DNA of 64,000 nucleotides from Mobula hypostoma (taxonomy: Eukaryota): the NCBI RefSeq assembly GCF_963921235.1, contig NC_086107.1, positions 116,810,001 through 116,874,000 of the forward strand, read 5' to 3'. Below are positions 38,931 through 41,408 of this stretch, in pieces (the first letter of the stretch is position 1; each line of letters begins with the position of its first letter). The position numbers and the translations under genes are program-made. The notes below the pieces were generated by a model. That model was given only the letters and a program-made list of their open reading frames with translations, did not search any database and was not told where the DNA came from.

Positions 38931-39445
38931 TTATTAATAGGTTATGAAAGTATGGAAAACAAAGTATGGAAAGCAGTCTTTGATTAAATATATTCGTTTT
39001 ACAACCAAATGGGGCCTAGGTTATGGCCATGTGGAACCCACATTTGAATTATTGTACTGTAATTCTACATGCTATGACAAAAGCTTAAGATTGTTTTGAT
39101 TTGATACAACATGGAGAATATCATGACATTGATAACACTCCAGAAATCTCTCCAAATGAGGTTTTTTACCTTTTGGGGGTGGGGTAATATTTTCTGCTGT
39201 ACTGATGTTAATGAGGAATATATACAAAAAGTGATTACTTATTTGAAGTAATAAAGCTACCGCTGGTGTAACACTATCACATATTTTCTAACTCGAGAGA
39301 TGTATACCTTGCCAAAAATCACTATGAGCATTATTCCCCTCAGATGGTACCGACCAACCCTACTGGCTCACGGACTGCATGGTGTACAAAGGATGTAGAA
39401 AATCTAGTTAAGAAGAAAAGAAAAGCTTACGAAGGTTCAAGAAAC

Positions 39446-39610
39446 ATACATCAAAGTTGCTGGTGAACGCAGCAGGCCAAGCAGCATCTATAGGAAGAGG
39501 TGCAGTCGACGTTTCAGGCCGAGACCCTTCGTCAGGACTTCTGCTGCGTTCACCAGCAACTTTGGTGTATGTTGCTTGAATTTCCAGCATCTGCAGAATT
39601 CCTGTTGTTT
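39446..39610. mobile_element. Miniature inverted Penelope-derived insertion with a 15-bp TSD
   Basis: TSD gaaggttcaagaaac at 39431-39445 and 39611-39625; minus-strand pLTR piece joined to a plus-strand tail. Confidence 0.9.
39504..39539 (-). ncRNA. Minimal type I hammerhead ribozyme (perfect copy)
   Basis: Reverse complement is AGTC-CTGACGA-AGG(GTCTCGG)CCT-GAAA-CG-TC-GACT. Confidence 0.9.
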
Positions 39611-40551
39611 GAAGGTTCAAGAAACTAGGTACTGTGAGAGCTCCAGAAATGACAAGGGTGCCAGAAAGGAGCCCAAGAATGAGATTAGGAGAGCTGGAAG
39701 GGGCCATGAAAAGGCCTTGGTGAGCAGAATTAAGGAAAATCCCAAGGCACTCTACAAGTATGTGAAGAGCTAGAGGATAAGACCTGAGAGGATAAGACCA
39801 ATCAAGTGTGACAGTGGAAAAGTGTGTATGGAACCGGAGGAGATAGCAGAGGTACTTAATGAATACATTACTTCAGTATTCACCAGTGAAAAGGACCTTG
39901 GGAATTGTAGGGATGACTTACAGCGGACTGAAACACTTGAGCATATAGACATGAAGAAAGGGGATGTGCTGGAGCTTTTGAAAGATATGGAGTTGGATAA
40001 GTCTCCGGGACCGGATGAGATATACCCCAGGCTACAGTGGGAAGCGAGCGAGGAGATTGGTGAGCCTCTGGTGAATATCTTTGCATCCTCAATACAGATG
40101 GGAGAAGTGCCAGAGGATTGGAGGGTTGCAAATGTTATTCCTTTGTTCAAGAAAGGGAGTAGAGATAACGCAGGAAATTATAGACCAGTGAGTCTTACTT
40201 CATTGGTGGGCAAGTTAGAAACAAAGAAAAAATACAGCACAATAGAGGCCCTTCAGCCCATAATGCTGTGCTGAACATTTACTTACTTTAGAAATTACCT
40301 AGGGTTACTCATAGCCCTCTATTTTTCTAAGCTCCATGTACCTATCCAAGATTCTCTTAAAAGGCCCTATCATAACCGCCTCCACCACCGTTGCCAGCAG
40401 CCCGTTCCATGCACGCACCACACTCCGTGTAAAAACACTTCCTCTGTACCTACTTCCAAGCACCTTAAAACTATGCTCTCTTGTGATTGCCATTTCAGCC
40501 CTGGGAAAAAGCCTCTGACATGATCAATGTCTCACATCATCCTATACACCT

Positions 40552-40689
40552 GAGTCCTGACGAAGGGTCTCGGCCTGAAACGTTGACTGTACCTCTTCCT
40601 AGAGATGCTGCCTGGCCTGCTGAATTCACCAGCAACTTTGATGTGTGTTGCTTGAATTTCCAGCATCTGCAGAATTCCTCGTGTTTGCG
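40552..40689 (+). mobile_element. Short Penelope-derived insertion with a 13-bp TSD
   Basis: TSD atc(c/t)tatacacct at 40539-40551 and 40690-40702. Confidence 0.9.
40553..40588 (+). ncRNA. Minimal type I hammerhead ribozyme (GUU triplet variant)
   Basis: AGTC-CTGACGA-AGG(GTCTCGG)CCT-GAAA-CG-TT-GACT. Confidence 0.82.
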
Positions 40690-41408
40690 ATCTTATACAC
40701 CTCTATCAGGTCACCTCTCATTCTCTGTCGCTCCAAGAAGAAAAGGCTGAGTTCACTCAACCTATTCTCATAAGGCATGCTCCCCAATACAGGCAACATC
40801 CTTGTAAATCTCCTCTGCACCCTTTCTATGGTTTCCACATCCTTCCTGTAGTGAGGTGACCAGAACTGAGCTCAGTACTCCAAGTGGGGTCTGACCAGGG
40901 TCCTATATAGCTGTAACATTACCTCTCAGCTCTTAAACTCAGTCCCACGGTTGATGAAGGCCAATGCACCGTATGCCTTCTTAACCACAGGGTTAACCTG
41001 CACAACAGCTTTGAGTGTCCTATGGACTCAGACCCCAAGATCCCTCTGATCCTCCACACTGCCAAGAGTCTTACCATTAATACTATATTCTGCCATCATA
41101 TTTGACCTACCAAAATGAACCACCTCACACTTATCTGGGTTGAACTCCATCTGCCACTTCTCAGGCCAGTTTTGCATCCTATCGATGTCCCTCTGTAACC
41201 TCTGACAGCCCTCCCTACTATCCACAACACCTCCAACCCATCCCTCCACTTCCTCATCCAGGTCATTTATAAAAATCATGAAGAGTAGGGGTCCCAGAAC
41301 AGATCCCTGAGGCACACCACTGGTCACTGACCTCCATGCAGAATGTGACCCATCTACAACCATTCTTTGCCTTTTATGGACAAGCCAATTCTGGATCCAC
41401 AAAACAAG

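What the first reader, a model, noticed from the sequence alone, without database searches (positions are those of the whole stretch)
39431..40702. Tiny ribozyme-only mobile units whose 5' boundary coincides with the hammerhead edge
Seen: three independent insertions (20190-20324, 39446-39610, 40552-40689) consist only of the hammerhead plus ~60-100 nt of Penelope tail. Two have clean 13-15 bp TSDs. In all three the Penelope homology starts within about 1 nt of the stem I 5' strand (AGTC), not at the predicted cleavage site 32 nt later. Random 5' truncation would not give this. Inference: this is either a distinct non-autonomous retrozyme/SINE-like family mobilised by the Neptune RT/EN, or a ribozyme-defined RT stop or processing site. 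It may be undescribed in chondrichthyans.
Basis: partly seen in the sequence, partly recalled or inferred. Interest (0 to 1): 0.82.

Follow-up and report, generated by a model that had tools for sequence, protein, structure and literature searches.

The report
Truncated Penelope copies ending at hammerhead
The tiny ribozyme-plus-tail units are real, independently inserted but dead-on-arrival short copies of a very abundant Penelope-like retrotransposon, and their front ends pile up at the hammerhead's 5' edge, so they mark a weak point in the element's copying cycle, not a new mobile family.

Summary
All three window copies start within 1-2 nt of hammerhead helix I. Two have target-site duplications: 15/15 and 12/13 nt.

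The tail 26-mer occurs 67,950 times in the genome at up to 1 mismatch; the control gave 0. I sampled 100 copies without regard to their 5' extent. Of these, 46 end in a 35-nt zone around the hammerhead 5' edge and 16 end within 4 nt of it (p about 1e-15). So the boundary is a strong hot spot with shoulders, not a razor edge.

51 of 65 short insertions have flush exact duplications of 10 nt or more; the control gave 1 of 65. 40 of 65 carry an inverted 5' arm.

Short and long copies share alleles and haplotypes. None of the 100 is a head-to-tail tandem. This argues against a separate SINE or retrozyme lineage.

The elements are about 3.5 kb, encode RT plus GIY-YIG, and have pseudo-LTRs, a roughly 35-nt tail and two RT start sites, as published.

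The cause of the pile-up is unresolved. I favour loss of the RT when it leaves its conserved hammerhead-tail recognition module. An RNA 5' end (initiator-like motif) is the main rival.

The parts
20191..20324 (+). Short copy A: hammerhead (about 20191-20226) plus tail, forward arm only. Starts at the G of helix I AGTC.
   Evidence: It is 93% identical to copy C over 134 nt. I saw no target-site duplication. It lies inside an unrelated LINE-like reading frame.
39431..39445 (.). Upstream target-site duplication of copy B.
   Evidence: 15 nt, 100% identical to 39611-39625.
39446..39539 (-). Copy B, inverted arm. It runs from about ref 1148-1158 (RT start site 1, no tail) inward to the A of helix I at 39539, and contains the hammerhead on the minus strand.
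39540..39610 (+). Copy B, forward arm: about ref 1119-1190, tail included, no hammerhead.
39611..39625 (.). Downstream target-site duplication of copy B.
40539..40551 (.). Upstream target-site duplication of copy C (13 nt, 12/13 identical to 40690-40702).
   Evidence: read directly from the sequence.
40552..40689 (+). Short copy C: one extra G, then hammerhead 40553-40588, then tail. Its last two bases (CG) match the spacer that follows the RT start site in full-length elements.
40690..40702 (.). Downstream target-site duplication of copy C.
54254..55539 (-). Inverted arm of a longer 5'-truncated copy of the same element. It carries the endonuclease coding part, the 3' UTR and the hammerhead (54318-54353), and stops about 35 nt short of the 3' end (no tail).
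55540..56730 (+). Forward arm of that longer copy, used as the coordinate ruler (ref 1-1191). Reading frame with CX4CX2C and GIY-YIG-like motifs ends at 56296, 3' UTR 56297-56593, hammerhead 56594-56629, tail up to 56730.
   Evidence: No Pfam family at E up to 0.01 for this decayed copy.
47785..47831 (-). Old fragment of the same tail (about 80% identity), abutting a 1.55-kb (CA)n array.

Best explanation
The tiny units are dead-on-arrival, 5'-truncated insertions of an endonuclease-bearing Penelope-like element (PLE) of about 3.5 kb. They are not a family of their own.

Shown:
- The element is built as pseudo-LTR, ORF, pseudo-LTR. The ORF has an N-terminal part, an RT with YIDD, a CX4CX2C linker and a GIY-YIG endonuclease.
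- The last roughly 137 nt of each unit form a module: a minimal hammerhead (36 nt), about 65 nt, a stem-loop and a tail of about 35 nt.
- This module is conserved at 70-80% between families whose upstream 3' UTRs are unrelated.
- Copies end at two 3' positions about 35 nt apart. Forward arms end at ref 1182-1191 and sometimes run a few bases into the 20-nt spacer that precedes the ATG. Inverted arms end at ref 1144-1160. This fits the published internal initiation of reverse transcription at two adjacent sites, and the 'tail'.
- Most short insertions have 13-15-nt target-site duplications. 40 of 65 carry a head-to-head inverted arm, of the twin-priming or fold-back kind.

Inferred:
- First-strand synthesis starts inside the module, which the RT recognises, and copies it.
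- About half of the events then end just as the enzyme leaves the module at its 5' border, the base of hammerhead helix I. The per-nucleotide risk of ending is about 15 times the background there and decays over the next 50 nt or so upstream.
- I read this as a failed switch from initiation to processive elongation. By copying the module the RT turns its own high-affinity binding site into an RNA-DNA hybrid and loses its hold on the template. This is comparable to promoter escape, or to a template boundary in the related telomerase.
- RTs that arrive from downstream at an occupied upstream module tend to stop on its 3' side instead.

The confidence has two layers. That these are truncated by-products of the PLE and not a separate lineage: about 0.85. 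That the pile-up is caused by loss of the RT on leaving the module: about 0.4-0.45. The single figure given is a compromise between the two.
For: 1. Abundance and sampling. The tail 26-mer has 67,950 hits at up to 1 mismatch, against 0 for the control. I analysed the first 100 exact hits, which are unbiased for 5' extent.

2. Risk of ending per nucleotide:
- ref 1071-1191: 0.0009 (11 of 100 ended)
- ref 1036-1070: 0.0148 (46 of 89)
- ref 1001-1035: 0.0053 (8 of 43)
- 35 copies go on, and end about 0.1% per nt further up (starts listed).

3. The stop depends on position, not on length. Forward arms start near ref 1191 and inverted arms near ref 1155, yet both peak at 1053-1056. That is 12 of 100 forward starts and 8 of 42 inverted inner ends.

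4. These are independent integrations. 51 of 65 short insertions have exact flush duplications of 10-17 nt, with a mode of 13-15. The shifted control gave 1 of 65 (one search allows one mismatch).

5. There is no separate lineage.

6. Module boundary. In 4 of 6 diverged copies (67-81% identity) homology to the ruler begins exactly at ref 1055. It begins at 1053 in one and at 1042 in one. Three of them have unrelated pyrimidine-rich sequence upstream, and one is itself a tiny unit with an inverted arm.

7. Full-length copies. The ORF start is preceded by module plus 20-nt spacer in 7 of 8 copies examined. Their 5' ends in upstream-module coordinates are: 990 or lower in three, then about 1021, 1095, 1163, 1183 and 1212. 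Four of eight therefore stop within about 120 nt after entering the upstream module from its 3' side.

8. Local RNA stability does not single the site out. The hairpin centred on 1055 folds at -10.5 kcal/mol and ranks 138 of 1112 windows. Far stabler hairpins elsewhere have no comparable pile-up.

9. Literature read. A purified anole PLE protein initiates internally at two adjacent sites about 110-150 nt downstream of its hammerhead. The tail lies between the two sites. The protein-binding RNA lies between hammerhead and start sites. Hammerhead cleavage is not needed, and both DNA strands are nicked and extended (PMC11167929, main text).

10. Protein identity. The best relative is 73% identical, an uncharacterised protein of a bamboo shark. 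Relatives carry RVT_1 and GIY-YIG. There is a weak GIY-YIG hit, E = 9e-4, below Pfam's cut-off.
Against: - No RNA or biochemical data exist for this element. The 'escape failure' step is inference from end-point statistics alone.
- In the anole system the RT ran to the 5' end of templates that extended upstream of the hammerhead, and no stop at the hammerhead was reported.
- An RNA 5' end at the same place would give the same histogram. The site is a perfect YYANWYY initiator match with +1 on the first base of helix I.
- Only 8 full-length copies could be inspected. They were the best-scoring, youngest ones. Of the 4 that reached the zone in the upstream module, none stopped there. At a 52% stop rate that outcome has p of about 0.05-0.07, which is mildly against a stop that acts on every passing RT.
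- The 100-copy sample comes from the first 5 Mb of one contig and from exact 26-mer matches only, so from younger copies.
- The ruler is one decayed natural copy, so ends are good to about 1-3 nt.
- 14 of 65 short insertions lack a clear flush duplication.
Confidence: 0.5

Rival explanations
1. The template RNA itself begins at the hammerhead edge. A promoter in the 3'-UTR part of the pseudo-LTR fires at an initiator whose +1 is the first base of helix I, or the RNA is trimmed back to the folded or protein-bound module. RT that initiates at the 5'-proximal module of such an RNA runs off after about 100-137 nt, giving a 'strong-stop'-like mini-cDNA that gets integrated.
For: - TTAGTCC at ref 1053-1059 fits the classical initiator consensus YYANWYY, with +1 = A1055. 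The consensus is recalled, not looked up.
- The same pyrimidine-pyrimidine-AGTCC arrangement precedes helix I in all 5 diverged copies whose upstream sequence could be read; the sixth lies at its locus edge.
- Forward-only copies show a sharp class at 1056 (4 copies), and forward arms at 1055 (4 copies).
- D. virilis Penelope has a TATA-less, LINE-like internal promoter in its pseudo-LTR. Its intron ends at the 5' end of hammerhead helix I (PMC2377424 passages; PMC4209133).
- Symmetric inverted junctions are what snap-back at a template end would give. About 13 of 40 have both arms ending within 3 nt of each other.
Against: - 0 of 8 full-length copies begin in the zone, and 4 of 8 read through it.
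- 28 of 100 insertions end at ref 1001-1052, upstream of the proposed +1, so several start sites would be needed.
- There is no consistent extra G at the 5' junctions. Most show 1-4 nt of microhomology instead, as truncated copies do.
- Both short and long copies sometimes run into the same spacer at their 3' ends (15 of 65 and 7 of 35), so they use similar template contexts.
- No RNA evidence could be obtained.
Confidence: 0.3
2. A distinct non-autonomous family (SINE-like or non-LTR retrozyme) made only of hammerhead plus tail. It would be transcribed from its own copies and mobilised in trans by the PLE protein.
For: - High copy number: 65 of 100 sampled insertions are short.
- Clean target-site duplications.
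- A weak trend for short copies to have short nearest neighbours (0.68 against 0.54).
- Non-LTR retrozymes are proposed derivatives of PLE pseudo-LTRs and were found in one cartilaginous fish (preprint 10.64898/2026.07.22.740005, Results and passages).
Against: - No diagnostic substitutions. Haplotypes are shared with long copies: TAGC 12 short and 10 long, CGTT 11 and 4, CAGC 7 and 2. The nearest-neighbour test gives p = 0.11.
- The 5' ends are spread over about 35 nt and the structures vary (forward-only, inverted arms of many lengths). That fits by-products better than copies of a master.
- 0 of 100 are complete head-to-tail tandems.
- No tRNA-like head.
- Most copies start at or after the proposed initiator, so they lack upstream promoter sequence.
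Confidence: 0.05
3. The ends are shaped after synthesis by self-complementarity of the cDNA. A natural imperfect inverted repeat pairs ref 1040-1052 with 1059-1070, with its apex at 1053-1058. Hammerhead helix I pairs 1055-1058 with 1087-1090. Either lets a cDNA 3' end fold back or anneal to the second cDNA, so only ends near these points get a second strand and are fixed.
For: - Predicted hairpin centred on 1055.
- 40 of 65 short insertions have inverted arms.
- Junction classes fit helix-I annealing. One arm ends at 1050-1060 and the other at 1084-1093 in 7 of the 17 insertions that have one arm in the hot zone and a shorter partner arm (for example L052, L056, L072, L103, L107).
Against: - 25 of 65 short insertions have no inverted arm. 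Of these 25, 13 still end in the zone, including the sharpest class at 1056.
- The hairpin is of ordinary stability (rank 138 of 1112).
- Near-symmetric inverted junctions also occur at many other positions in long copies, such as 968/942, 920/914 and 886/903.
Confidence: 0.1
4. Hammerhead self-cleavage sets the 5' ends. Alternatively the boundary is an artefact, where homology merely stops because upstream sequence belongs to another subfamily.
For: - A minor cluster lies next to the predicted cut (after ref 1086): 5 of 42 inverted inner ends at 1084-1087 and 6 of 100 forward starts at 1088-1093.
- Families do differ upstream of ref 1055.
Against: - The main peak lies 31-33 nt upstream of the cut site. 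Only 1 of 100 insertions has its deepest end at 1087.
- Flush target-site duplications place the insertion boundary itself at the hot spot in 51 of 65 short copies, so it is not a homology artefact.
- In the anole element, cleavage-dead mutants insert normally.
Confidence: 0.03

Closest known systems
5'-truncated copies of Penelope-like elements carrying minimal hammerheads (Cervera and De la Pena 2014, PMC4209133; parts 1-2 of 4 read)
   Same: - Minimal type I hammerhead in the pseudo-LTR.
- Thousands of dispersed single motifs, 'probably related to truncated PLEs'.
- Pairs of motifs close together on opposite strands.
- In D. virilis the intron ends at the 5' end of helix I. Here a pyrimidine tract plus AG sits in the same place.
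   Different: - That paper gives no end-point distribution. Here the truncation points are measured and pile up at the hammerhead 5' edge (46 of 100).
- The copy number is far higher here (at least 67,950 tails).
- The host appears to be a cartilaginous fish.
Internal initiation of reverse transcription and the 'tail' of PLEs (Frangieh et al. 2024, PMC11167929; main text read)
   Same: - Two 3' end classes about 35 nt apart, roughly 100 and 137 nt downstream of the hammerhead start.
- The start sites lie in or near an AC/GT-rich stem-loop.
- Both strands are used, giving inverted arms.
- The cleavage site is not used as an end.
   Different: - In the anole element the ORF starts inside the hammerhead. 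Here the ATG lies about 35 nt after the second start site.
- A stop at the hammerhead 5' edge was not reported in vitro.
- The present evidence is genomic only.
Non-LTR retrozymes of animals (Cervera and De la Pena 2020, PMC7229834, passages; Li, Clavereau and Pollet 2026 preprint, Results part 1 and passages)
   Same: - Small non-coding units with a type I hammerhead, related to PLE pseudo-LTRs.
- 'Monomer' copies are dispersed in genomes.
   Different: - Retrozymes are head-to-tail tandem repeats of about 170-400 nt, with canonical hammerheads, that make circular RNAs.
- Here there are no tandems in 100 copies, a minimal hammerhead, no lineage of their own, and the units are flanked by 13-15-nt duplications.
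Twin priming / 5' inversion of LINE-1 insertions
   Same: An inverted 5' segment joined head-to-head to a 3' segment, within one pair of target-site duplications.
   Different: - Here the second primer uses a fixed internal site about 35 nt from the 3' end.
- The arms often overlap or are symmetric.
- The frequency is very high: 40 of 65 short insertions.

Membership tests
Penelope-like element with endonuclease (Neptune-type) | Single ORF with a reverse transcriptase followed by a C-terminal GIY-YIG endonuclease. | tested here: met
   - Translation of a natural long copy shows RT motifs (YIDD) and GIY-YIG-like motifs.
- GIY-YIG Pfam hit at E = 9e-4, 19.9 bits, below the 22.6 cut-off. No Pfam family was reported at E up to 0.01 for the RT pieces.
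- 477 relatives at E up to 0.001. The 120 listed mostly carry PF00078, and many also carry PF01541.
Penelope-like element with endonuclease (Neptune-type) | Pseudo-LTRs from partial tandem insertion, often with an adjacent inverted 5'-truncated copy. | tested here: met
   - 7 of 8 full-length copies have part of an upstream module in front of the ORF. 2 of these have inverted arms.
- Inverted arms are present in 40 of 65 short insertions.
Penelope-like element with endonuclease (Neptune-type) | A 30-40-bp 'tail' present at one end only. | tested here: met
   Forward arms end at ref 1182-1191. Inverted arms mostly end at 1144-1160 (36 of 42; 4 stop earlier, at 1103-1117). The difference is about 35 nt.
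Penelope-like element with endonuclease (Neptune-type) | CX2-5CxxC motif in the RT-EN linker (Neptune and Nematis clades), and placement in an RT tree. | tested here: inconclusive
C-KRNK-C-YT-C is present in the translation. The motif is named in PMC8557442 (passage).
Minimal hammerhead of metazoan PLEs (min-HHR) | CUGANGA and GAAA boxes, with helix I and helix II. | tested here: met
   - Motif read: AGUC, CUGACGA, A, GGGU-CUCG-GCCU, GAAAC, GUC, then GACU.
- The boxes are intact in 72 of 90 sampled arms that span it.
- Helix I (5 pairs) and helix II (4 pairs) appear in the predicted fold.
Minimal hammerhead of metazoan PLEs (min-HHR) | [quoted passage not shown] | tested here: met
   There is an unpaired A after CUGACGA. 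ACGU is palindromic and is followed by the cleavage-site C (sequence). The criteria are from PMC4209133.
Minimal hammerhead of metazoan PLEs (min-HHR) | Self-cleavage. | not testable with these tools
   No assay was possible. Published minimal PLE hammerheads cleave poorly as monomers.
Canonical hammerhead families of Rfam | A match to a curated hammerhead covariance model. | tested here: not met
   0 matches at gathering score in the whole window. No hammerhead among matches at E up to 10 in 40500-40740.
Non-LTR retrozyme | Head-to-tail tandem repeats of the hammerhead unit (dimers to multimers). | tested here: not met
   0 of 100 sampled copies is a complete tandem. One copy has a duplicated tail piece (L050) and one has a partial second copy 134 nt away (L120).
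Non-LTR retrozyme | Expression as monomeric linear and circular RNA. | not testable with these tools
   No run on record as RNA holds the stretch. Only contigs could be laid.
SINE | Its own lineage with an internal promoter head (tRNA, 7SL or 5S derived). | tested here: not met
   No tRNA-like gene in 39300-40800. No diagnostic substitutions against long copies.

The most novel reading that the evidence does not exclude
The hammerhead-tail module is a self-contained mini-template, and its 5' edge is a true functional boundary for the telomerase-related RT. There are two possible forms. Either the edge acts as a template boundary or escape checkpoint that aborts about half of all integrations. 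Or it is the +1 of an internal promoter, so that every copy keeping the module can be transcribed and copied again, making a cryptic SINE-like amplifier hidden among truncated copies. Either form would turn tens of thousands of genomic 'fossils' into an in vivo footprint of the PLE initiation complex.
Probability: 0.15. Interest if true: 0.7.

Novelty: new member of a known kind. Interest (0 to 1): 0.42.

Why it matters
Penelope-like elements are the least understood class of retrotransposons. Their mechanism has been reconstituted in vitro for only one element.

This genome holds at least 68,000 natural integration products. Their ends map three things at near-nucleotide resolution: the two RT start sites, the tail, and a previously unquantified point where about half of the events end, at the 5' border of the conserved hammerhead-tail module.

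That gives a concrete, testable hypothesis: either a failed switch from initiation to elongation, or an RNA 5' end. It also offers a cheap comparative assay, end-point histograms in other PLE-rich genomes.

For annotation, these roughly 100-250-bp hammerhead fragments and palindromes should be masked as PLE remnants. They should not be called a new SINE or retrozyme.

Tried and rejected
- Rfam. No hammerhead at gathering score or at E up to 10. The motif call rests on manual criteria.
- RNA evidence. No RNA holder is listed for the element. Contigs of four coded runs were laid on window 55540-56780. They were thousands of short repeat-derived pieces, with no table of molecule starts. This is uninformative on transcription starts or splicing.
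- Splicing idea. A branch-point-like TACTAAC/CTCAC, a pyrimidine tract and AG precede helix I. The only good donor-like site within 900 nt upstream is CAG|GTGAGG, inside the endonuclease coding region (7 of 7 long copies scanned). In most short copies no extra 'exon' lies between the duplication and the unit. I dropped this as the cause.
- Simple RNA-hairpin stall. The local hairpin is of ordinary stability.
- Solo pseudo-LTR by recombination. Rejected, because short units carry their own duplications and inverted arms.
- 3' extension test. Short and long copies run into the spacer equally often (15 of 65 and 7 of 35), so this does not discriminate between the models.
- Counting upstream-module ends of full-length copies genome-wide with two-part patterns. 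The step was stopped, so n stayed at 8.
- More genome sequence.
- The scan's earlier notes. Nothing was on record for this genome. The hits by words concerned other organisms and did not bear on this case.
- Supplements of PMC11167929 and PMC4209133 were not opened, and those of the preprint are closed. They may hold end-point plots relevant to whether this hot spot was seen before.
- In my three literature searches, and in the papers I read from them, I found no description of a truncation hot spot at the hammerhead 5' edge.
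Full report
**What is in the window.** Three short copies of one repeat lie at 20191-20324 (A), 39446-39610 (B) and 40552-40689 (C). Each holds, or in B's forward arm follows, a 36-nt motif, AGTC-CTGACGA-A-GGGTCTCGGCCT-GAAAC-GTC|GACT, and about 100 nt of 3' sequence.

The same 3' sequence ends a longer copy at 54254-56730. That copy is two head-to-head arms of about 1.2 kb. Each arm carries the C-terminal part of a reading frame, about 300 nt of pyrimidine-rich 3' UTR, the motif and the tail. 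I used the forward arm, window 55540-56730, as a ruler (ref 1-1191). On it, helix I starts at ref 1055, the predicted cut lies after ref 1086, and the 3' end is ref 1191.

- A starts at ref 1056.
- C starts at ref 1055 after one extra G.
- B is an inverted arm whose inner end is ref 1055, joined to a forward arm from about ref 1119.
- B has a perfect 15-nt target-site duplication. C has one of 13 nt with 12/13 matching. A has none that I could find.

**The ribozyme call.** Rfam gives no hammerhead, neither at gathering score over the window nor at E up to 10 around copy C. The motif does meet the criteria that Cervera and De la Pena give for the minimal hammerheads of Penelope-like elements (PMC4209133):
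- CUGANGA and GAAA boxes;
- an unpaired base after A9;
- a 4-pair helix II;
- a 4-5-pair helix I;
- a palindromic ACGU in place of helix III;
- a C at the cleavage site.

The boxes are intact in 72 of 90 sampled arms that span the motif. Cleavage was not and could not be tested.

**What the element is.** The window's genome is held (3.48 Gb, 200 contigs). A 26-mer of the tail occurs 67,950 times at up to 1 mismatch, and its reversed control occurs 0 times.

A natural long copy shows frameshifted pieces of one ORF with RT motifs (YIDD), a C-x4-C-x2-C linker and GIY-YIG-like motifs. Pfam gives only a sub-threshold GIY-YIG hit. The N-terminal/RT piece has 477 relatives at E up to 0.001. The best is 73% identical, in a bamboo shark, and relatives carry RVT_1 and often GIY-YIG domains.

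Walking upstream with own-genome searches showed that the ORF begins 15 nt after a point at which 39 of 39 other scored hits start. In 7 of 8 full-length copies whose upstream 220-240 nt I could fetch, that point is preceded by a 20-nt spacer and, before it, by the same hammerhead-tail module.

The element is thus pseudo-LTR, ORF, pseudo-LTR, with about 3.5 kb per unit. What looks like the 3' end of every copy is an internal point of the template RNA, about 35 nt before the ATG. This matches the internal initiation of reverse transcription shown for an anole PLE (PMC11167929). 'Neptune' is plausible from the linker motif but was not tested by a tree.

**End-point histogram.** The pattern search lists hits in order along the genome, regardless of what lies upstream. 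I fetched the first 100 (contig 1, 0.04-5.03 Mb), oriented them, and located forward and inverted arms against the ruler and five other natural long copies.

The deepest template position per insertion was:

| ref position | insertions |
|---|---|
| 1000 or lower | 35 |
| 1001-1035 | 8 |
| 1036-1070 | 46 (16 of them at 1053-1056) |
| 1071 or higher | 11 |

The per-nucleotide risk of ending is 0.0009 before the zone, 0.0148 within it and 0.0053 just upstream of it. Further up it is about 0.001. Of 65 ends within ref 1001-1150, 46 fall in the 35-nt zone (p = 8e-16).

Forward arms start near ref 1191 and inverted arms near ref 1155, yet both peak at 1053-1056. The effect therefore follows template position, not product length.

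A second set of 28 loci from other contigs was chosen by similarity to the whole unit and so is biased. It gave 13 ends in the zone, 11 at 1000 or lower, 2 in 1001-1035 and 2 above 1070.

The hot spot is real and strong, but it is a peak with shoulders and not a single nucleotide.

**Are they insertions in their own right?** Yes. 51 of 65 short insertions have exact duplications of 10-17 nt (mode 13-15) flush with both ends of the whole structure. A control window shifted by 100 nt gave 1 of 65 (one search allows one mismatch).

This also excludes the worry that homology merely stops at ref 1055 because subfamilies differ upstream.

40 of 65 short insertions have an inverted arm inside the same duplications. 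The outer ends of these arms lie mostly at ref 1144-1160, and forward arms end at 1182-1191. These are the two start sites and the roughly 35-nt tail described for PLEs (PMC8557442 passages; PMC11167929).

**Are they a family of their own?** No. For 41 short and 34 long copies that cover ref 1060-1191, the four clearly polymorphic columns have the same allele frequencies (p = 0.37, 0.45, 0.98, 0.76). The common haplotypes occur in both classes. Short copies do not have short nearest neighbours significantly more often than under shuffled labels (0.68 against 0.54, p = 0.11). None of the 100 is a complete head-to-tail tandem, and there is no tRNA-like head.

**What sits at the hot spot.** Four features coincide:

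1. It is the base of hammerhead helix I.
2. It is the 5' limit of the module conserved between families. Six diverged copies (67-81% identity) share the module. In four of them homology starts exactly at ref 1055, while three have unrelated pyrimidine-rich sequence upstream, and one is itself a tiny unit with an inverted arm.
3. TTAGTCC fits the initiator consensus YYANWYY (recalled) with +1 on A1055, and pyrimidines precede AGTCC in all five diverged copies with readable upstream sequence.
4. A branch-point-like motif, a pyrimidine tract and AG end here, as does the real intron of D. virilis Penelope. I found no nearby donor site.

In addition, the pyrimidine tract can pair with the CUGACGAAGGG half of the ribozyme, giving a hairpin whose apex is at ref 1053-1058. 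Its stability is ordinary, at rank 138 of 1112 windows.

**Mechanism.**

Shown:
- target-primed insertions from internal start sites;
- frequent inverted arms;
- a position-specific excess of ends at the module's 5' border;
- no separate lineage.

Inferred, and my preferred reading at about 0.4-0.45 for this step: the RT binds the module, starts inside it and, in copying it, destroys its own binding site. About half of the enzymes are lost as they leave the module, and the risk decays over the next 50 nt or so.

The eight full-length copies fit a module that is also an obstacle from the other side. Four of them end within about 120 nt of entering the upstream module (about ref 1212, 1183, 1163 and 1095). 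One ends at about 1021, and three read on past 990.

The main rival, at about 0.3, is that RNAs begin at the initiator-like site and the tiny units are run-off cDNAs from the 5'-proximal module. Against it:
- no full-length copy begins in the zone (0 of 8);
- 28 of 100 ends lie upstream of the proposed +1;
- the junctions show microhomology and no extra G.

For it: the sharp 1055/1056 classes and the LINE-like internal promoter of Penelope.

Fold-back at local self-complementarity probably shapes many junctions. Classes such as 1055|1087-1093 fit helix I annealing. But it does not explain the forward-only copies.

Hammerhead cleavage explains at most a minor cluster at ref 1084-1093.

**Limits.**
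- There is no RNA evidence. No RNA holder is listed, and only contigs could be laid.
- The 100-copy sample is from one 5-Mb stretch and from exact 26-mer matches.
- End positions are good to 1-3 nt.

**Comparison and novelty.** Truncated PLE copies with minimal hammerheads, opposite-strand pairs, tails and inverted arms are all described. PLE-derived retrozymes are also described, including in one cartilaginous fish.

What I did not find in the papers read or in three literature searches is a measured truncation hot spot at the hammerhead 5' edge.

I therefore class the objects as new members of a known kind, with a modestly interesting quantitative property that makes a step of PLE reverse transcription testable.

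Noticed in passing
window 54254-56730: A 2.5-kb palindromic copy of the same element: two arms of about 1.2 kb joined head to head. A copy on contig 1 (L073 plus L132) has its inversion junction at almost the same template position.
   Followed up: partly
window 56570-56610; L137:40-82: The pyrimidine tract just upstream of the hammerhead can pair with the CUGACGAAGGG half of the ribozyme, giving a hairpin with its apex at the helix I start. This could switch the ribozyme off in long RNAs. Pyrimidine tracts precede AGTCC in five diverged copies as well.
   Followed up: partly
sampled loci L039, L052, L056, L070, L072, L099, L103, L107: There is a minor cluster of arm ends at ref 1084-1093, next to the predicted hammerhead cut and the 3' strand of helix I. 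It may reflect cleaved templates, or annealing of cDNA ends through helix I complementarity.
   Followed up: partly
window 47785-49375: A 1.55-kb (CA)n array (86% matches) abuts an old minus-strand fragment of the element's tail. PLEs of this type are reported to favour microsatellites, and the first RT start site lies in an ACACA-rich stretch.
   Followed up: no
L041+L131 and L062 (contig 1): Two near-full-length copies share the same junction: an inverted arm ending at ref 259, abutting the same forward-arm position 743 nt downstream of the ORF-side 5' end. The rearranged structure was either copied as a whole or duplicated.
   Followed up: partly
L133 (contig 71), 800-1060 nt upstream of the element's ORF start: An unrelated repeat with a sharp 5' boundary and 7,465 first-look candidates in the genome (91-94% identity). 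It was not identified.
   Followed up: no
L004, L009, L018, L117, L123, L133: Several older PLE families, 67-81% identical in the module, share the hammerhead-tail module but have different 3' UTRs.
   Followed up: partly
window 20100-20420 and 39626-40250: Copies A and B are inserted into reading frames of an unrelated LINE-like reverse transcriptase (translated by eye).
   Followed up: no
long copies: Truncation points of long copies repeat at a few positions: ref about 917 (3 times), 727-738 (5 times), 556-559 (3 times) and 259 (2 times). This suggests further, weaker preferred end points.
   Followed up: no
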